64,000 nucleotides of DNA from Carcharhinus amblyrhynchos (Eukaryota): assembly GCA_965287045.1 (NCBI GenBank), contig OZ336878.1, positions 69,688,001 to 69,752,000 on the forward strand, written 5' to 3'. Made by a program: the position numbers and the translations under genes. Each line of letters starts with the position of its first letter. Within the stretch, counting starts at the first letter, position 1. Below, piece after piece: positions 1 to 44,789 of this stretch. The notes below the pieces were generated by a model, which saw nothing but the letters and a program-made list of their open reading frames with translations, ran no database searches and was not told the origin of the DNA.

Positions 1-3000
1 TCTTCCAACCACCCCAGGGTCCTATGTAGTTCCTATGCCTACTCATGTCAACCTATACCCACCATCTATCTCCCTTATACCTACCATGTCAACTCACCCA
101 GTATCCACCAGGGGCAAACCTCAGGACCTATACTGAAATAAGATAAAATAAAGTTCTATAAAATAAAGTTCTAAATGTCTATTGTAGACTTTACTATATT
201 GAGAAAACACACTCATTTGTGAAAACTTATGTCAGACATTTACATTCCTTCAAGCAGTGTTTCATTCAAGTGCACAATCTCATAAAACAACAGGCATTTG
301 AATCTATAGTTCCACTTCAAAAAGTCTATACTCACCAGTAGCTGTTGGTCAAACTATACAATGGCAGGTACCCTACTGTGATAATGGATGGTTGTGAAAT
401 CAATCATTCATCAATAATACAGTAATGAAAGCCCTCTGACTTATGTCGACAGAGTGAAATAGCAGACAATTTTTTCCAAACATTTTTGTTCAATGATTTA
501 AAGCCAACAGCTTAACAGCTCCCTCTCTCAGACCCTTGTGACATTTTTGGTAGGTCCTCTTGACACTTTTGACAGATCAGTTGACAGTTCCAATGAGCTT
601 GAGAGTTTATGAATTTATGCACCTTTTGCACACACTCATGCTGATTTTTCCCATTCTACAAGGCACCTTAACTCTCCCAAAGGACACCTGATCAAACCCA
701 AAGGATACTGGACCTCCAATAAAGTGCACTTTATTTCCAATAAAGAGTACCCAACCTATCCATAAGGTGTCCCAGGACCAGATCCAAAGGAGTACCTTTA
801 CCTCCCCTGGCTATCCACATGAATCCACAATGTTTACATTTAGATTTCAATTCAAATCTGAAAATTCTGCGTTTCACACTCCAACGTGATCAAAATTCCA
901 CTTGAGCAGACGCAGCTGACGATTTCAGTGGTCAGGTGCTCTCATAAAATATACATGCTGGAAATGCATCCTAACCTCAATCCCACCACCATAAAAATGA
1001 GAATTGCGGTGTTTGAGGGCAGAACTTGTGATTCTTAGTAAGCTCTCACCAGAGAGACTTTCCATCATGGCAAAAACCTGGGTCTATGTGCTGTAGCACT
1101 ATTGCCCTTTTGGTCTGCTATACATCTGTCAGTCCCAAGGTAGAAAGTTAATCTGGTCCTGGCAATCATTTCTGCAATCCACGAATGATAATGCTTTATT
1201 GTCCTTATTGGGGAACGTGCCTCACGAGGTAAATACTTTTGAATTGAAAGGACTTGATTATTGAATTTTCTCAAGTATTTAGCTTTTATGTGGTCTGTTT
1301 CAAAATAAAGCTTTACAAAGTCCATTGGTGGTATGTGCAATCTATCAATTGGAGGACAATGAACGTGTTCCAGTGACATAAGCCTGGGAAAATGTCCTCT
1401 TTTAGGCATTTCACTTTTTTGGACTAATTATACGCTATCTTAGATATTTTAATTGGATTAAAGGTGACTGATCCACATTGTTTGCTGTAGAAACTGAGAA
1501 TTCTTATTGCCTTTAACCTACATTAGTGGCTGTGATGCACTTGTCACCCAACATAGGGTAAATATTCTACCACAGTCAATGTGTGCTGGTGGAGGCATTA
1601 ATTATGGTTTCACCTGAGCACATATAAAGAAATTGGGGGCTGGTTGAGTTAGAAGATATCTGCTTGTAATGTTTCATTCTGAATAAGTACAAGACTGAGT
1701 TAAGATTGACTCTAGTAATACCCTTCATCAACAGGCTTTCTGGAGGTTAAAAGTGTGCCGTAAAGTATGTGGTTCTTGTTTGATATATTTACATGCCACT
1801 GTAAGTTAGATTTCAATGACTCATACATTTTCGAAGGACAGTGCCACATGCACCTAATGCCAGGCTAATAGCTTTCTTGGTTTGGTTCAGGGTACCCACC
1901 AGCCTCCAGTGTTGTTATTTGTCGAGAAAACTAAGTAAAAGAGGCAGACTGACAAAAAAGGATATTTTTTACTGAAATAGAAACCTTATTTTTGAAGCAG
2001 AAAAAAAGTGTGGGAGGCAATTTCTTTCTTTCTGCAAAACATTAAACTTCCAGTCTTGCAAATTCAAGATACTCAAACACCCAGGACAGCTGGTGACTTT
2101 GGGTATTTGAGGCACTCATTAGACACCTAAATCTGTAATTCCACATTGGTTCTAAGCTACTTTGTTGTATGTTTTCTTTTCTCCAAGATGTTTAGAAAAT
2201 GGTAGGACAGTGGATGGAGTAAAGTCAAAAATTAACTTTTTTGTGTGTCCAAAATTGGAGTAGCTTTTATCTTATTTTTCAGATTGGAAATCGAGAGCAT
2301 GTTTTAATGCAGTGTAGAACGGGCTAAAAACACGGCCAATATCTATTACAGTTAGGACTTTGGAAAGAAAGACAATATGAAAGACTATTCCACTAGAATT
2401 AGAGTTATTGTCAAATTTAATATCCATCAATTCCTTTTTCTTGTTTAAGCAGTTTTCAAAGACACTCGTTCAAAAGATGTAGGCAGAAATGCCATTTTAA
2501 GAGTGATTTCATGATCCCAGTATAGAAGCCATGTTTGCAGGGAACTGAGAAAGGTAATAGGGCTACAGCATTACAGCCAGGATTACCCAACCTATCCTCC
2601 TGTTGAGAAAGGCTGCTTGATGGGAGTGTAGGATTACGGAATCAACTTTTTCCTTTCTTGTTCTGTTATACTTGTTCTCACAGATAAGACTTTATTACTG
2701 CCTTCGACTGCAGTCATAAAATGTGACAAGGGTTTTAATTATTGCCTCAAATGCATGTAGCCTGGTGTGCACATTTTTGCGCCACCGATGCCATTGCCAA
2801 ATGCCAAGAATACATATACTGCATGTTTGGGGAAAAGGGATTCACTTTTTTAAACCTCAAAATGAGCTAAGAATTTAAATAATTTAGATAATTCAGTTTA
2901 AGAAACAAAGTTATTCTACTCCCTTTTTAATGAGGAAAAGCAGATTAATAATCTAACAAAAAATTGATTTTTATTTTATAGAAGACAAATAAAGTGCCTG

Positions 3001-3214
3001 TTTATTCAACGATGGTGCTCAATATTGCGAAAGTCACTTGAAAATGATTGAGCCTATATTCTTGATTTTTTTGGCTTTTTGCTGCTCTATGTCCGAATAT
3101 ACTATACTGTCAAGTCATTTTCATTGTAATTCAGGCAAAGAGTGCAGAGTTAGGAGCAGCCTTCTCCCAAAAAATTACTAAGTGTAATTTTAAACGAGAA
3201 AACGGTGCAACGCA

Positions 3215-3920
3215 GGCATGATTCTGATCTTCCCGCACTTAACCATTTTTGGGAGGGAAAATTGTGGGGGGGGGCCATCCTGCACCAGTTTGGAGAGGGG
3301 CAAGGCTTAAAGTTGGAGCCTGTTTCACAGAGATTGGAGTGCCTTTTTAAAATTTGAAATTGAAGAGCCGCCCCCACCCATCTTCCCCCATGGACATCAG
3401 GACACCAGCATTGATTGCTGGTCTGATTCCCCTCCCAACCACCAAGCGTAGTTTGCTGACCAGATATCTTGCACCATGCCCCCACCCCCGCCCCTGAACA
3501 CTGATCGCTGATATCCGAGCCCTTCCAATGGGTTTCCCTTCATACCCTACTCCATTCATACCCAGTCCCCCAGAGAACGGCCTAGCCATGTTCACCAACT
3601 ACTTGGGGACTTCCATGGCCTCCAAGCGCATGCGCCCCAACCCTCCCCTCCACAGTGCATGACCACCTTGACTGGTTTCCATTTGTAGAAACCCCATAGT
3701 TGTTCATGCAATATTCCTGTTGTGCCTGAAGGATAGTGAATCCCAGTAGCAGCAAGAAACTGGCTTAAAACTGACTAAGCATCCTTAAATGATGATTTAA
3801 ATATGCTAATCTGGTTCTTGCCCTCACTAGGCGAGAACCAGATTACTTCAGAGCACAGCGGTGGGGAGATTCCCAAAGGGCATTCTCACTGGCGCTAAAT
3901 ATGCTAGGCTATTTTGCTTC
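3215..3920. mobile_element. Degenerate GC-rich non-autonomous DNA transposon/MITE-like repeat
   Basis: An abrupt GC-rich block with a GGCATGATTCT-like start and C-rich tracts, similar in style to the insert at 19555-20480. The termini are poorly preserved. Confidence 0.4.
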
Positions 3921-4009
3921 TGGGGGAGCACTGTGATCTTGGATTCTGTGGTCATTGGAGAACACATTCCTTGTGTTGTCTCATCAGCAACCATGCTCAC
4001 AATCAGACA

Positions 4010-4234
4010 GTAGGAAGTCTCCCAACAGCAGGTTAAAGTCCAACAGGTTTATTTGGTAGCAAAAGCCACTAGCTTTCGGAGCGCTGCCCTTTTGTCAGGT
4101 GAGTCACCTGACGAAGGGGCAGTGCTCTGAAAGCTAGTGGCTTTTGCCACCAAATAAACCTGTTGAACTTGAACCTGGTGTTGAGCGACTTCTTACTGTA
4201 TTTACCCCAGTCCAATGCCGGCATCATCACAATC
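4010..4234 (+). mobile_element. Penelope-related palindromic short element with minimal hammerhead motif
   Basis: 93-bp inverted arms centred on 4103; CTGACGA...GAAA core at 4108-4132; tail CCCCAGTCCAATGCCGGCATC shared with the copy at 44335. Confidence 0.7.
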
Positions 4235-4557
4235 ACACTTACAGCATAGTGTATTGTGAAATGTAAATGAGCAGAGATGTGGTGTAATTCAAGCTGCATT
4301 AGACTTATCACAGAGCACCTATGCAGTGAAACCACTACTTTCAGGGGAGGTTTATCACCTGTGTTATTTTGAAATTCAAAAGATATGAACAGTATATGCT
4401 GCTAAGTCATGCTAACACTGCAAAAAATAACAAGGATCAGGTGTTAACTTTACAATATAAAGACAGTATTGTGACTACTTATTCAGATGGACTAGTAAGT
4501 AGAAGTTATACTTTAACCAAGGTGTTATTTCTGTTTTTCTATCCACAACTCCTATAG

Positions 4558-4671
4558 GTGATAAGAAAAGGTTGGCTCACCATCAGCAACATTAGCATCA
4601 TAAAAGGAGGCTCCAAGGAATACTGGTTTGTACTGACTGCAGAGAGTCTCTGTTGGTTCAAGGATGAAGAG
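4558..4671 (+). CDS. dnm3: Dynamin-3 internal exon, start of PH domain ([38 protein letters not shown])
   Basis: Acceptor ...cctatag and donor gtgaga; 114 nt, phase 0-0; the translation matches the dynamin PH N-terminus (VIRKGWL...[14 protein letters not shown]). Confidence 0.96.
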
Positions 4672-7277
4672 GTGAGAAGACATTTGTTTTCTCTTGCAAC
4701 CATATAACCTACCATAATTATCCTATCAAAAGGATGTTGGCGCGCATGGCTGTTGAATTCTTCAATCGCCAAGTGGGGTAGTGTATTGATTCACCAAATC
4801 TTTCAATGTTGAGTGTAGGATCTGGACTAATGTTCTCTTTAGATGTGAGAGAGAACTGAAGGGTGAGTCTTTCATTGTTAATGCTGAGTAACTGCTTCAC
4901 TAATTTGGGGCTCTGTTTCATCAGCTGGCGAAGTAGCATGTGGCCAGGATGAAAATAATGTTAGAAACGTGGGGAAACACTGTGATAAATTTTAGAATAT
5001 GTTTACTTCAGATCTGAGCAGGCAGTTGGAATGCCTGCCTCTTTTCTATTTTTCTGGATCCTCTGTGAAATGTTTTCAAGACAGCCTTAACTTGGGCATA
5101 ACTCCACAGTATAAGAACAATTCAGAAATTCAACATGGGTGATAAATTTGTAATCTCACTCAGCCACAAGATGTGGTGGGTATGGAAAATGGAGACGTGA
5201 TTTTGGCACAGCAGTAGTTTCAAGTCTGAGCTTGGATTTAAAGACAGCGTTGAGGTCAACTAGTAAGTTCTTTCACTCTGTATTTGGTTGAAGTAATCCT
5301 GCCCTCGGAGTGCTTGGTACCATCACCAAAGCAGCAATGGCAACTTGAAGTTTATTATGTCTAATTTCCCAAAGATGCTTCTCAGAAATGTAGTCAAATA
5401 AAAATAGATTGTGAACGAGAGACTGAGAAGGCAGGAGGATGACCAAAAAATTGGTATAAGAAGTACAATGAGAAACAAAAATAAAAAGCATAATGTGGAA
5501 ACTAAATTTAATATATCACAATGGTTTTATTCCACAGACATGCCACTTTTATTTCACACAAGATAGTGTAGCTATAATTAAAATACTTTTTAAAAAGATT
5601 ACTATTTATCAACAGTGAAATAATTGGCAACTGCCAATTAAAAAGTAGATGCATAGCTATGTAAGATTTTCTCATGGAAACAGTTAATTGTAGTTTAAAC
5701 TTAAGATATAAATAGCTTTTTGTTCGCTCTGTTGGGGAGAGTTTCACAGCCCAGGAATGTGATAATTAAGTTCTGTGAGAGTTTGAACAATAAACTTGAG
5801 TTAATTCCTTCCAGGCAACAGGTTCTAAATTACATTTAAAATTGGCCAGCCCAATTGCCCACCTCAACTAATATAATGGTCATATGATTGATGGTGTGAT
5901 GCAGACATTTCTTCACTTTTGTTCACTTTGAGAAAGGCTATCGGGAAATTATCCACATTTAAGGTGTTATTAAGTTAAGACGTCATATCCAAAAATAAAT
6001 TTACTGTGCTGATTTGAGAGTCATAATGATACCATATTACACACACATTTAATATAACACAGGTCTGCCAATTAGTCAGTGTGCTGATTGCTCAATTATG
6101 ACTGGGGCCAATAACATTATAACGAATATATGATTGTGAATCCAGTAGGTATAGGTATAGTATTGAATTATTGCCCAGCGAATATGATGCATGCACCGTC
6201 ATTAGTTTGTAAATCGTCCAGCAACTTGCAGTATGAAAACGTGCCCTGTGACTTGCGAATCACAAGTTGCTGTACAGTTTGTACCGCTCTGCCATTTTGC
6301 ACCTAATTTGGTGTTAATTCACCTTGTTTCTGTCATTTCTTTGTTATTATCCCTCTCTATAAATCTCATTGCTGAAGGAGATAGATTGTTGTTCACATTG
6401 TTCGCCAATATCCCTTCAGCCCCTTTATACTTATGTGCTGTTAGCAGATAGCATCATAGTTTCAGCAATTTTGGAACAAAATTCTTTCTAAGGTAAGGAT
6501 GAACAGCTAAGTAACAGAACATATGGTGAGATGTTCTGCTTCAGTAGATTTTGGGCTTTGGTGGACATATATTTGGGATAATTTTCATGTTAACCTTGCA
6601 ACAAAATTATTTATACTGAATATTGTATTGTATTAAAATAATCCTGCTGAAGTTTACATTAACTGAGGGAGAAGCAATTATAGAACAATGCATTACTGAA
6701 TACTAATAGGTAGAAGAGTACTTTGAGGAATAGAAATATTAGCAGCTATGTTGAGTCATCCTAAAATTTGCCCCAGGATCAGGTTATTAAGATACCTGGA
6801 AGGAGCTTACACCTCCAGGCATTTTAGAAGAGTGACATCCACATACAACGATTCTACTTTCACATTTGGACTAAGGACCAAGTCTCCACAGATAGGCTGG
6901 GCTCATCTTAGTTTCTGCTTACTTCCTATCAGAAGGTATAATTGACCCAAAGTTTAATGGGACCATGCTTTGCTGAATAAGGTAACAGAGCTTCTTACAT
7001 TATTGAGTGCTGATCTTTAACTCTGCAGTTACCTGTACCCTTGTAATATCGTACCAACAAGGAATGCCAGCCCTATTGCAGTAACAAAGTAAATGTTCAA
7101 CTGTACTGTGTAATTTTTAAAGTATTATTAACTCCAGAAATTGATATTTGTATTTAACTGTATGAGCTACTTGTTAGCTTCTTCAGAGAGCCAGCACAGA
7201 CACAACAGGCCAAATGAACTCCTTCTGTACTGCAATTATGCTGTGATTCTGTGGGTTAACTCTAATTTAAACTTGAT

Positions 7278-7404: not shown

Positions 7405-8195
7405 ATTACGACTGGTGTCTCTGACAGTGTTTCACAGTTCAGGAATCTAATGAGGTGGAGCAGTGGTAACACTGCTTCATTGTTTGTTGATCCAAACAAC
7501 AGATTCATTCTGTGTGAATCTCAAAATACAAGTTAAACATGTCAGTAATTGAAAGAAAATTAACTGGTCAGTAAAATGTATTAAGTAACCATTAATTTTG
7601 TGTATTTTTTAAATAAAGCCGATTGGGTGATGAAACATTTTAAAATGTGTAATATATTGTATGAAACTGTGGCAGACTTTGCAGATTGATACTTATAGAA
7701 TTGAAGCCATTGAAAAATATTTAATTATCCTTATTATGTTCCTTTGAATTTCAAGCAATGGCAAGTAGCTGCTAAAATATATAAATGTCAGGAAATGTAA
7801 TTATTGAAAGCATATTTTTATGACGACATTGTAACAGTGAAATGTAAGAATTAGACATGCTGCCCTTAACGCTGATGTGTCAAAATGTAGTTCTTTCAGA
7901 CAGTTTCAAAAGTGTCTATTTCTGTTAAAACTTATACAGCTCCTTGTCCTAATCAAACCAATCCAATTAACATTTAGATTACCCATAAAGTCTTTATTTT
8001 TCATGTCTGCATCAGTGAAAAAATGAAACGTACATAAATCAAAGCATGTAGTCGTTACAGTTGATGAGAAAGAAAAGTGAACTTACAAAGCAGCTATATT
8101 GCATTGCTGAAGATGATATTTTAATAAACCTCATGAAGTCTTTTGTACTGAGAATGGTTCTTCTGATATCCAGTTGAATGGCTGTCAATCAGGCT

Positions 8196-8286
8196 GGGTT
8201 GTCATGTGACTGCCTGTCTGTGCCTGCTGTACAGGTGAGAGGATTTTCTGCACAGCAAGTGTAGACAGGCAGACACATGACAACTC
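8196..8286 (-). ncRNA. mir214: pre-miR-214 hairpin
   Basis: The reverse complement of 8209-8230 is ACAGCAGGCACAGACAGGCAGU (miR-214-3p) and of 8250-8271 is UGCCUGUCUACACUUGCUGUGC (miR-214-5p). The basal stem is GTTGTCATGTG/CACATGACAAC. Confidence 0.97.
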
Positions 8287-11200
8287 CTACCAGCCACTGC
8301 TAATTTACCTCAGTATTTCTGTTCTTCTGTTTAATAATTGTAACAGTAAGCAATGGTCTTCCAAAACAATTGACAGGAGAATATTCATTCTTCACTCTTT
8401 TAGCAATACATGCTGAAATAGTTTTTTAAGTTTATGTAACAATCACAAATATACAGTGGAGCACAGAAGGAATCACATTTAATCTTAGATGTACATTGAC
8501 TGTCTGATTATAAAGTTGATTTCTTGTTCCAAAAGTAAGTTATCATTGATAACCAAATATATGCATTTTGGTGTTTTGTATTTCAGCATCTTTTCACTTT
8601 CCTGCCCCCCCTCCTTGCCCCCAGCCACCCCCACACCTGACCCCCCCATGCAACCCACCTTTGTTGAATGGTAAATCTAAGCAGCTCATTGCAGCTTCGC
8701 TGGAAGTAAATGTATTTCAGTTGCAGACTAACTTAAAAACATGAAGGTGGCCATGGAAAATTATTTCACATATGTGAGAAGGGGAAAATACAATGCATTG
8801 TGATACTAAATTAATAAAAGACAATTCCCATGTATGGTGAAAGAATATCATATATATATACTTATATGCTTATTATCTTTTTAAATTCAGGCGCAAGTAT
8901 AATTACTCTGCATTATACAGTAAGAAAAATTGCTTTGTATTAGTTTATAGTGATATGAGTAATCAGTATTGTATATTATTACATTTATTATTATCATATG
9001 CTATCATGGTGCAACAATGTGTGTACACTTGGCAAATAATGCCAGTGCTTCAGGTTGCTGACTCAATGTCGCATATGTTTTGTTCTGAAAAACTTGCATT
9101 TATTTAGGGTCAAAGTGTATCAGATCCAATAGTCTGAAGTGCACTAATTGCTTGACAGGCAGACTCCTGAATTGATGATATTCTGATGGGGCAAATGTTA
9201 GTTACTTTTAATGCACAATGTGAGTTTTTATTCTGACTGTTACGAAATCAGCATAAACTGAACTATGGTTCAATATTGGATCCATTAATTGAACGTTGGG
9301 AAATGTTTTTGAGGGGGAGATGTTATACGTGGTTATTTTAGTTGAGGCTATATACAAAAATATACAAGTAATTTATTGCTTAGGATTTTGATTGATTTTA
9401 AACTTTTGATATTAGTTTTTGCAATATGATAGTTACAAATTGCAGGTCTCCAGGATTTTCCTCTTAGGATCAACAGATTGTACTGAATCATTCAAGTTTG
9501 TTTGTTCTGACAAATTAGACTGGCTTTAGGCAACTCTACCACTTCACTGGATAGATAAGATCATACAATAGGGAAATAAACTTTGTATTATTGGTCTCCC
9601 AAGCCCACAATCTTTAAAACTACAAAAATGGTATGTGTTGTACACTGTATGTACTGGCAGACGTGGAGGAAATGGATATTTTTAAATGTTTGTTTTGAAT
9701 TGAATGCCATCTAGTAAGGAAACCTTCGCCTACTGGCCAATATCCTGGTTTTTATGCAAAGTTTTGACGTATGGTGCAGTTGTTGATTCATGAAATTGCA
9801 TGTTTATTTTCAAACAGTTACATTTCCGCATAAGCTTCATTTAAAAAAAACAGGCACTTTATATTTTGAACACATTTCCCTTCCCTTTTTATTGTTTTAA
9901 GCAATTAGCAAATGCAATCTTAAGTGTGTACCTTTGTGTGCTAATTAATTTAAAAAAACAAGTAGAGAGGTATGCATTTTCCATGAGGGTACAAATCTTT
10001 CTCAAATATTTAACTTGAAAATATAAATTAATTCTTATTACAAAAGTGGAACTGGTTGTTACTGTCAGGTAATTCAAATCCTGTCAGATATTAGGTCTTA
10101 TAAGAGTTTAGAAGAGGTTTTTTAGAAAAACTCTCCTAATACAACACTTTTTTTTAAAAAGGAAAATTGAATGAGACCATTATTGCAAGGTTGGCCCTGT
10201 TTCAGAAATTTCTCCTGCTAACATTTTTCTTTGATGTGAAGGAATTGAAAAATTACCAATACATGATTTTCTGCCTCTTGTCACTTTCCATGGAGATTTG
10301 AGGCTTGGGTGGTCCATTGCTGGTGCCTAGCTAATATAAACAATTTAGTAGGCCAGCAAGAATGACAAGATTGAGGATAAGCACTCAGAAACTGAGACTT
10401 GCAAATTGTGTTAAATTTTAAACAAAACAGAGTCTTATTTTCGCAATTTATCCTTGCTCTCTCATGGCAAATTCAGCCCCCCACTCCCCCTCCAGATGAA
10501 AGCTGTGGAATTCAGGCTGCAAATTCACCTCTGGTGATTGTCATTGTCTTTATGTGGCCATCTGACAGAAATGTTTCACTGTTTAACTAATTTGGTGCAA
10601 CTTCGATTAAGAGCTGAATGGGAACATGTACCTTCCTGAATGCAATACCTCAACATACGTTACTTTGTTAACCTGTCTGTTTTTAATTAGCAAAAATGTG
10701 TGTTCAAATTAGAAGATAATGACCCATCAGCTATTTTTAAGCATTTGAGTACTTGACTGATATAATCTTCTCTATGTCTGAATGCTGTTATATGTATACT
10801 GCTTTCAGCAAAGTGTATGTCCTTAAAAATCATAATAGTCAACTCCAAGGCCTGATGTAAAGTCAGACATAGTCTATTTCCCATCGCTTAGTATATTGAT
10901 CACGAGGTGCCTCCTTAGTGACTAGAATGGACAGGGGAAGGTAATTTCAGTATACATTTGATTTGTATTTAAGATGTTAATCCATCATTCATAATTTACT
11001 ACTTAAGCCGATGAAGTGCAGCTTTTAAAACTTCTCCCAGTGAGACTATTAAATAGCTTTCACACTAAAGACGTAGGAATTAATTCTTCCCATCACACGA
11101 GAAATTAAGTTGATCAGTGGAATGATGCAGTGAGAAGCCATGTGAAATTAGTGATGCGTTATTTAGGCTCACAAAAAATAAGATTTCAGCCTACAGTAAC

Positions 11201-12491: not shown

Positions 12492-12580
12492 TCCCATGCC
12501 CAGTCTAACCAATGTGCAGACTACTGTACAACAATATTGTCCTGAACAGGTAGTCTGAACACTGGGGCGACGGAGCAGGA
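12492..12580 (-). ncRNA. mir199: pre-miR-199 hairpin (mir-199a-2 type)
   Basis: The reverse complement of 12544-12566 is CCCAGUGUUCAGACUACCUGUUC (5p) and of 12506-12527 is ACAGUAGUCUGCACAUUGGUUA (3p). The flanks UCCUGCUCCGUCGCC and GACUGGGCA resemble the mir-199a-2 paralog. Confidence 0.97.
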
Positions 12581-44012: not shown

Positions 44013-44334
44013 GTGCAGGCTAATGGTCTTATCAAAGCCAAAGTGCATGCTGTAGATGCCAGTCTGGAACCAAAATGATAACCATTGCACTGGAAAACCA
44101 GCACGCACATGTGCATTTTGTGGCTGTATTCTGAGAGTACATAGTACTGGAGGGATCAAAAGGGATGGAGTTTTACTGCATAGCATATAGTATCTGTCAA
44201 TGTTGTCAGATAGTAGATGAAAAAAAGGAGGGGGCCAAATATAATTTACTGGGAGACACTAGAGGAGCCATTGCTGAAGTGAAAATCAGAAACTGTTGCT
44301 AAAACAAATCTCCATCTGAGATCAGATAGATATA

Positions 44335-44508
44335 GTAAGAAGTCTCACAACACCAGGTTAAAGTCCAACAGGTTTATTTGAAACTCACCTGAGGAAGGAG
44401 CAGCGCTCCAAAAGCTCATGATACCAAATAAACCTGTTGGACTTTAACCTGGTATTGTGAGACTTCTTGCCATGCTCACTCAAGTCCAACGCCGGCATCT
44501 CCATATCA
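44335..44508 (+). mobile_element. Second Penelope-related short element with inverted arms and a mutated hammerhead core
   Basis: Same arms and tail as 4010-4234, with a single CTGAGGA-AGGAGC-AGC-GCTCC-AAAA core. Confidence 0.7.
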
Positions 44509-44789
44509 TAGCTAGATATTAGTGCAGAAAGAGAAGGGCAGTCCTACAGCTCTTGGCAGCAGTGGCAAGGTTTTGGAGAGAATGGTGTGTTTGGTCACTG
44601 AAGGGTACAGAGAGTTACTGGAAGACAAGAGGAATCATGCACCATGATGAAAGCACACAGATTGTAAAATATTTACAACACAGTAACAGCACATTTGGCC
44701 CAATATGTCCATGCAAGTATTTGTCATTAACATGAGCCTCCTTCCAATCCTCTTCATCTTACTCCATCAATTCAGCCTTCTGAAAGATA

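What the first reader, a model, noticed from the sequence alone, without database searches (positions are those of the whole stretch)
4010..4196. 187-bp palindrome carrying back-to-back minimal hammerhead ribozyme cores, ~360 nt upstream of a dnm3 exon
Seen: two 93-bp inverted arms around a 1-nt centre (4103). On the + strand, 4104-4140 reads UCAC-CUGACGA-A-GGGGC-AGU-GCUCU-GAAA-GC-UA-GUGG. This gives stem I (CAC/GUG), an intact CUGANGA, stem II, GAAA, a vestigial palindromic stem III (AGCU) and a UA cleavage site. The mirror copy on the - strand has CUGACAA, a core mutation. Known: Penelope-like elements carry minimal type I hammerheads that are thought to cleave as dimers. Inference: the intact core is on the dnm3 pre-mRNA strand, but its own antisense arm is transcribed first and should sequester it in a long hairpin. 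That would give a self-silenced ribozyme that is also a long dsRNA (ADAR/Dicer) substrate near a splice acceptor.
Basis: partly seen in the sequence, partly recalled or inferred. Interest (0 to 1): 0.7.

Follow-up and report, generated by a model that had tools for sequence, protein, structure and literature searches.

The report
Head-to-head Penelope retroelement stump in dnm3
This DNA palindrome in a dynamin-3 intron is two short, back-to-back copies of the ribozyme-bearing end of a very common Penelope-type jumping gene; the genome holds at least 967 similar palindromes, so it is likely an ordinary insertion scar rather than a regulatory switch.

Summary
The palindrome is real (96-nt arms, 89% complementary) and lies in a dnm3 intron. 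It is a single insertion, 4007-4226, flanked by a 9-bp target duplication. It holds two head-to-head copies of the pseudo-LTR of a Penelope-like retroelement (RT plus GIY-YIG). At least 967 such compact palindromes exist genome-wide. In 59 of 94 sampled element ends there is an adjacent inverted partner. This architecture is published (PMC8557442, PMC3846280, PMC4209133), and this scan noted it before on other genomes. The family's hammerhead is genuine (stem II covaries). Both copies here are decayed, the + copy at its stem-II closing pair, and both are predicted to be locked in the hairpin. Nothing suggests a host function. One point of interest: element 5' ends pile up 2-8 nt before the ribozyme core (24 of 65), about 30 nt behind a TATA-like motif, which may mark the element's RNA start. 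A test on ORF-bearing copies did not confirm this.

The parts
3997..4005 (+). left copy of the target-site duplication (TCACAATCA)
   Evidence: such duplications flank 24 of 33 compact palindromes against 0.7% of 1056 mismatched flank pairs
4007..4103 (-). short (tail-less) arm: pseudo-LTR positions about -6 to +91 relative to hammerhead C3, in antisense to dnm3
4066..4102 (-). broken minimal hammerhead: G8 to A (CUGACAA) and G10.1 to A
   Evidence: alignment to the family majority sequence
4096..4104 (+). CAG|GTGAGT, a consensus 5' splice-donor sequence brought in by the antisense arm; predicted paired at the hairpin tip; use untested
   Evidence: consensus MAG|GTRAGT recalled
4102..4104 (.). 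head-to-head junction of the two arms, at the family's 5'-end hotspot (-8 to -2)
4104..4199 (+). long arm, pseudo-LTR positions -4 to +91
4104..4140 (+). minimal type I hammerhead: stem I 4104-4107/4137-4140, CUGACGA, extra A4115, stem II 4116-4120/4124-4128 with a G-U closing pair, GAAA, AGCU, predicted cut after A4136
4200..4226 (+). one-sided 'tail' of the element; in a near-full-length copy it ends at the ORF's ATG
   Evidence: profile match runs to 4231, overlapping the duplication
4227..4235 (+). right copy of the target-site duplication
4558..4671 (+). host dnm3 exon (start of the PH domain); context, not part of the insertion
   Evidence: a 1786-nt contig matches only 4556-4672

Best explanation
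The palindrome is two head-to-head copies of the ribozyme-bearing end of an abundant Penelope-like retroelement inside one target-site duplication, likely made in a single insertion and likely decaying without a host role. Shown: family identity, one-sided tail, target duplication, copy numbers and the 5'-end hotspot. Inferred mechanism (about 0.5): the element's endonuclease cuts both target strands. Each cut end would prime a short cDNA on the element's RNA, one starting at the outer end of the tail and one about 35 nt further in. Both would stop near the same place just 5' of the hammerhead and be joined end to end through 1-2 nt of overlap or a few filler bases. In dnm3 pre-mRNA the unit is predicted to fold into a 96-bp hairpin that prevents ribozyme folding and would be spliced out with the intron.
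For: About 2,279 candidates for the right arm; 12,362 exact matches to one 35-mer; at least 967 compact back-to-back units with 0 in the reversed-pattern control. Longer copies run into a GIY-YIG domain (Pfam E 5e-05, above cut-off) and an RT (E 1e-09); in L168 the tail abuts the ORF's ATG. 59 of 94 anchored arms have an adjacent inverted partner, and in 55 of those 59 exactly one arm has the tail, none has it on both. In compact units the tail is on one arm in 37 of 45, both in 3, neither in 5. Target duplications in 24 of 33. 35 different junction sequences among 45 units, so junctions are made afresh. Young units have identical arms (89/89, 90/90, 92/92) while this one has 83/94. A 3124-nt contig from a related organism fits 4222-4760 and its 2564 preceding letters do not fit the arm, as an empty site would. 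In vitro, a lizard element cuts and extends both strands and starts at two sites that bracket the tail (PMC11167929, parts 1-2 read).
Against: The double-priming step is not shown here; 3 of 45 compact units have the tail on both arms. The empty site rests on one contig whose upstream letters I could not see. Gladyshev and Arkhipova explain such palindromes by self-priming on antisense RNA (PMC3846280, passages). No RNA data could test neutrality.
Confidence: 0.88

Rival explanations
1. The junction hotspot marks the element's transcription start. Short arms would be complete copies of the first 100-135 nt of the RNA (start to tail), like retroviral strong-stop DNA. This refines the best explanation rather than replacing it.
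For: 24 of 65 5' ends between -60 and +50 fall in -8 to -2 (7 of 111 positions; binomial p 5e-13); 6 of 35 unpaired arms also end there. Genome-wide symmetric junction counts are 967 at -2, against 71 at -36, 62 at +16 and 407 at +43. After correction for pattern sensitivity these become 1464-5326, 151-639, 199-766 and 615-1150. The family has a TATA-like TTTATAT at -38 to -32 and an initiator-like CCACT with A at -6 (promoter consensus recalled). An internal pLTR promoter is reported for Penelope (PMC2377424, passages).
Against: Among 24 usable copies whose pLTR runs into the ORF start, 3 begin at -13 to -6, 13 begin further upstream and 8 downstream (6 of 30 gave no usable alignment). That is weak support at best, although seamless strand transfer or read-through could hide a start. 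These copies are a younger subfamily than the anchored sample. No raw RNA reads were available.
Confidence: 0.4
2. The palindrome arises by fold-back self-priming of an antisense RNA or of the first cDNA strand, with the hotspot set by a reverse-transcriptase stall at the ribozyme's edge.
For: Proposed in print for head-to-head palindromes (PMC3846280, passages). The antisense strand reads a TATAAAG motif at the same place. Young arms are identical, as copying one arm from the other would give.
Against: A 1-nt loop at 4103 cannot prime. The two 5' ends of a pair often differ by tens to hundreds of nt. Unpaired arms share the hotspot (6 of 35). The target-duplicated, tail-bearing end fits priming on sense RNA (PMC11167929).
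Confidence: 0.25
3. One reading: a self-silenced intronic ribozyme and long dsRNA that influences dnm3 (editing, small RNAs or splicing of the next exon).
For: The hairpin is predicted to be very stable; the + copy keeps CUGACGA and GAAA; the monomer alone folds stems I and II at about 0.9; the antisense arm also supplies a consensus splice donor at 4096-4104.
Against: One of at least 967. Arms have drifted at 11 of 96 positions without repair. The conserved G10.1-C11.1 pair is lost. The only other same-strand copy in the window is 40 kb away and has lost G12. Minimal hammerheads cut poorly even as dimers (PMC4209133, parts 1-2 read). The insert ends more than 280 nt before the polypyrimidine tract. 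Probably absent from a relative.
Confidence: 0.05
4. The palindrome is a self-contained non-autonomous element (MITE-like or retrozyme-like) that is copied as a unit.
For: Units are compact and carry target duplications. The centre GAGTC/GACTC recurs in 9 of 45. At another position one identical junction recurs several times.
Against: 35 different centres among 45; the two arms of young units match each other while stem II differs between units; no tandem same-strand ribozymes, which define retrozymes (10.64898/2026.07.22.740005, part 1 read).
Confidence: 0.07

Closest known systems
Insertions of endonuclease-bearing Penelope-like elements with an inverted 5'-truncated pLTR, one-sided 30-40-bp tail and target duplication (Adineta vaga Pen2a/Pen2, PMC3846280; general scheme in PMC8557442; passages read)
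   Same: Head-to-head inverted pLTR, tail on one side, 9-bp duplication, TATA- and initiator-like motifs in the pLTR, palindrome at the junction.
   Different: Reduced to two arms of about 100-125 nt with no ORF; both arms stop at the ribozyme's 5' edge; present in a thousand or more copies.
Minimal type I hammerheads of metazoan PLEs (Cervera and de la Pena 2014, PMC4209133; parts 1-2 of 4 read)
   Same: CUGANGA and GAAA boxes, 4-bp stem I, extra nucleotide between 9 and 10.1, palindromic AGCU at helix III; that paper already notes dual motifs 100-700 bp apart on opposite strands.
   Different: Here the two cores are only 9 nt apart; stem II is 5 bp; this copy has G-U in place of G10.1-C11.1.
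Poseidon element of Anolis, PAc (PMC11167929; parts 1-2 of 4 read)
   Same: Two 3' end positions about 35 nt apart (+91 to +96 and +124 to +127); no ends piling up at the ribozyme cut site (4 of 65, as expected by chance), in line with that paper's RNA-seq result.
   Different: This family has a C-x4-CxxC linker (Neptune or Nematis type), and its ORF starts after the tail rather than within the ribozyme.
Non-LTR retrozymes (10.64898/2026.07.22.740005; part 1 of 5 read)
   Same: ORF-less, type I hammerhead, derived from PLE pLTRs.
   Different: Retrozymes are direct tandems with same-strand ribozymes; this unit is inverted.

Membership tests
EN+ Penelope-like element (parent family) | Reverse transcriptase in the same element | tested here: met
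   RVT_1 E 9.8e-10 in L160; L160/L168 carries the same pLTR
EN+ Penelope-like element (parent family) | C-terminal GIY-YIG endonuclease | tested here: met
   PF01541 E 5.2e-05, 23.9 bits against cut-off 22.6 in L066; below cut-off in L117; no family hit for the L160 piece
EN+ Penelope-like element (parent family) | pLTR with hammerhead at both ends of the ORF | tested here: met
   L168 has a partial upstream pLTR ending at the ATG and a downstream pLTR
EN+ Penelope-like insertion architecture | Adjacent inverted 5'-truncated copy | tested here: met
   window; 59 of 94 anchored arms
EN+ Penelope-like insertion architecture | 30-40-bp tail on one end only | tested here: met
   window 4200-4226; 55 of 59 pairs; 37 of 45 compact units
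EN+ Penelope-like insertion architecture | Short target-site duplication | tested here: met
   9 bp in the window; 24 of 33 against 0.7% of 1056 controls
Neptune clade | CX2-5CxxC linker between RT and endonuclease (PMC8557442 passages) | tested here: met
   C-x4-CxxC in P0002 and P0003
Neptune clade | RT phylogeny with Neptune rather than Nematis | not tested
   no reference PLE proteins were fetched
Minimal type I hammerhead | CUGANGA, GAAA and UH | tested here: met
   + copy complete; - copy has G8A
Minimal type I hammerhead | G10.1-C11.1 pair | tested here: not met
   G-U in the + copy and A-C in the - copy; the family majority has G-C (150 of 254)
Minimal type I hammerhead | Compensatory changes in stem II across copies | tested here: met
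   pair +10/+18: 173 Watson-Crick against 126.7 +/- 6.2 in shuffles; pair +11/+17: 195 against 152.9 +/- 4.9; the other 9 of 11 pairs tested did not exceed the shuffle maximum; copies are related, so this counts few events
Minimal type I hammerhead | Self-cleavage as a dimer | not testable with these tools
   needs an in vitro assay
Rfam hammerhead families | Covariance-model match | tested here: not met
   no hammerhead hit at E <= 10
Non-LTR retrozyme | At least two consecutive same-strand units, each with a hammerhead | tested here: not met
   only inverted copies here; next same-strand copy 40 kb away
microRNA precursor | Rfam match at gathering score | tested here: not met
   best 38.3 bits against 69

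The most novel reading that the evidence does not exclude
Compact palindromes are doubled strong-stop products. Two cDNAs, primed on the two cut target strands from the two start sites that bracket the tail, each run to the capped 5' end of the element's RNA at about -6, 30 nt behind a TATA-like box, and are joined head to head. The thousands of junctions would then map the element's transcription start and record an LTR-like strong-stop intermediate in Penelope-like elements.
Probability: 0.35. Interest if true: 0.5.

Novelty: new member of a known kind. Interest (0 to 1): 0.2.

Why it matters
As a locus it matters little: it is a decayed transposon scar. As a set, these stumps bear on an open question, namely how Penelope-like elements finish integration and why inverted ends carry a tail on one side only. 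The hotspot gives a concrete prediction (capped RNA ends at -8 to -2) that one CAGE or 5'-RACE experiment could settle. It also implies a thousand or more near-perfect 100-bp hairpins in this genome, some inside introns, as a background load of dsRNA and cryptic splice donors (inference).

Tried and rejected
Rfam scan of 3000-5400: only sub-threshold miRNA-like hits caused by the hairpin, no hammerhead. RNA evidence: no RNA holder listed, so editing, small RNAs and cryptic splicing are untested. The left-flank contig comparison with relatives gave no result, so the empty site is seen from one side only. 5' ends at the ribozyme cut site: 4 of 65 within +26 to +32, about chance; no genomic sign of cleaved templates. 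Start-site test on ORF-bearing copies: not confirming. Dimer energy: my explicit dimer structure has crossing pairs that ViennaRNA cannot evaluate, so that number is void; the predicted best two-molecule fold pairs stem II strands between molecules instead. Lariat branch point as the cause of the hotspot: rejected because most ends lie upstream of the candidate branch A at -2. Antisense splice donor as the cause: rejected because junctions keep the bases beyond the donor's cut. L047, L053 and L054 upstream ORFs do not match the Penelope-like ORF and look like another LINE family (recalled, not searched). PMC5785218 (dimer cleavage) was not held; I saw only its title in a reference list. Five paper searches surfaced no paper on this shark-type family or on a 5'-end hotspot at the ribozyme edge; I read six papers in part, no supplements, and subscription papers and Repbase are not covered.

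Full report
Observation. The inverted repeat is real: arms 4007-4102 and 4104-4199, 96 nt, 89% complementary, folding at z = -22. The exon at 4558-4671 is a dynamin PH-domain exon. By sequence alone it scores best against dynamin-2, but mir-214 and mir-199 on the opposite strand just downstream mark dnm3 (recalled synteny). Positions below are relative to hammerhead C3 = window 4108.

What it is. The right arm has about 2,279 candidate matches in the 2.9-Gb genome. Most top copies continue upstream into a shared sequence and end downstream about 35 nt beyond the palindrome. Longer copies lead into a GIY-YIG domain with a C-x4-CxxC linker and an RT; a protein query gave 45,845 first-look candidates. 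In the near-full-length copy L168 the same sequence lies at both ends and the tail runs straight into the ORF's ATG. The arms are therefore the pseudo-LTR of a Penelope-like element, Neptune type by its linker; phylogeny was not run. The host looks like a shark (recalled resemblance, and wording in the scan's notes; not tested).

True boundaries. The insertion is 4007-4226. The left arm covers -6 to +91 and the right arm -4 to about +118 plus overlap with the duplication. TCACAATCA flanks both sides (3997-4005, 4227-4235). In one related organism a 3124-nt contig fits 4222-4760 while its 2564 preceding letters do not fit the arm (run X18), as an empty site would. I could not see those letters, so this is an inference from one side.

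How common. An exact back-to-back pattern finds 967 sites, with 0 in the reversed control; this is a lower bound. For a sample blind to the 5' end I took the first 100 of 12,362 exact matches to a 3' 35-mer (all on contig C1). I examined 98; the two left out were compact palindromes already held as L035 and L036, so leaving them out works against the hotspot. Four near-duplicate loci were dropped, leaving 94 arms; two loci count from both arms. Of these, 59 have an adjacent head-to-head partner, and 55 of the 59 carry the tail on exactly one arm, none on both. 3' ends are bimodal at about +91 to +96 and +124 to +127. Among 45 compact units (the window, L010 and 43 of the first 50 listed) the tail is on one arm in 37, both in 3, neither in 5, and there are 35 different centres. 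Of 33 units with a tail and a standard short arm, 24 have a flanking duplication scoring 8 or more, against 0.7% of 1056 mismatched pairs. A second head-to-head unit lies in this same window at 44,326-44,509.

The ribozyme. Across 263 arms the core positions outside CpG are 92-98% conserved while stem II interior and loop vary (39-89%). Part of that sample was selected on core letters, which inflates core conservation, and the non-ribozyme 3' part is about as conserved. Two stem II pairs covary beyond 500 shuffles; the other 9 of 11 tested pairs do not; relatedness limits this test. G8-to-A occurs in 38 of 262 arms and C11.1-to-T in 88 of 263, both at CpG sites. The - copy's mutation and the + copy's G-U closing pair are thus typical decay. 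Alone, 4104-4140 is predicted to form stems I and II at about 0.9; with the left arm both fall to 0. The two cores are on opposite strands, so neither transcript holds the same-strand pair that minimal hammerheads need (PMC4209133).

The hotspot. 24 of 65 5' ends between -60 and +50 fall in -8 to -2 (p 5e-13; 18 of 59 paired and 6 of 35 unpaired arms), while the ribozyme cut site is at chance level. Control patterns of the same design at -36, +16 and +43 give 71, 62 and 407. After dividing by estimated pattern sensitivity the -2 site remains about 2-5 times above +43 and about 3.5-10 times above +16 and -36. Random truncation should instead fall steadily with distance from the 3' end. The family shows TTTATAT at -38 to -32 and CCACT with A at -6, a core-promoter-like spacing (recalled). 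Against this: of 24 usable ORF-start copies only 3 begin at -13 to -6, 13 further upstream and 8 downstream. Alignment ends are uncertain by a few nt, and subfamily differences in +7 to +40 can create false ends there.

Mechanism. Shown: family, asymmetry, duplication, counts, hotspot. From print: a lizard element cuts and extends both strands, starts at two internal sites that bracket the tail, is predicted to be a dimer, and does not need its ribozyme to insert in vitro (PMC11167929). Inferred: each cut strand primes one cDNA, one from each start site, and the two are joined at their ends. The published rival is self-priming on antisense RNA (PMC3846280). Whether the stop is the RNA's 5' end or a stall is open.

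Effect on dnm3. Untested, since no RNA holder was listed. The hairpin ends more than 280 nt before the polypyrimidine tract. The antisense arm supplies CAG|GTGAGT at 4096-4104, predicted paired; with a candidate acceptor at 3987 it would make a 111-nt exon with an in-frame stop. Arms have drifted at 11 of 96 positions, which gives no sign of selection.

Comparison and verdict. The inverted 5'-truncated copy, one-sided tail and duplication are described as typical of Penelope-like elements (PMC8557442 and PMC3846280, passages), and opposite-strand ribozyme pairs were noted in 2014 (PMC4209133). The scan holds 108 notes with these words in at least 21 genomes, among them the double-priming and RNA-start ideas; I had formed my reading before seeing them, and they are not independent support. 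Verdict: a real but ordinary member of a known kind; interest 0.2. Supplements of the cited papers were not read and may hold closer examples.

Noticed in passing
window 44326-44509: A second head-to-head insertion of the same family: long arm -6 to +127 on +, short arm about +40 to +97 on -, flanked by TAGATAT; its core has lost G12.
   Followed up: partly
window 8192-8292 and 12497-12576 (- strand): mir-214 and mir-199 precursors at Rfam gathering score, antisense to dnm3.
   Followed up: yes
window 3988-4098 (+): Candidate cryptic exon of 111 nt between a pyrimidine-rich CAG acceptor and the consensus donor from the antisense arm; contains an in-frame stop. No RNA to test it.
   Followed up: partly
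G000, e.g. C1:19855583, C1:43446284, C1:77736012: In the +43 control, one identical 42-nt head-to-head junction recurs in about 9 of the first 50 sites listed. It may be an overlap hotspot in an AT-rich subfamily or a palindrome copied as a unit.
   Followed up: no
family positions about -15: A smaller cluster of 5' ends near -15, just after a short hairpin and an AG in the pLTR.
   Followed up: no
L043, L140, L142, L144, L183: Target duplications often begin with letters matching the tail's end (CAT, ATG, ACATC), suggesting priming by short homology at the tail arm.
   Followed up: partly
L168 (G000:C4, about 73,735,900-73,739,500): Near-full-length element with one in-frame stop and a frameshift before the endonuclease, preceded by an inverted copy that keeps the tail.
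   Followed up: partly
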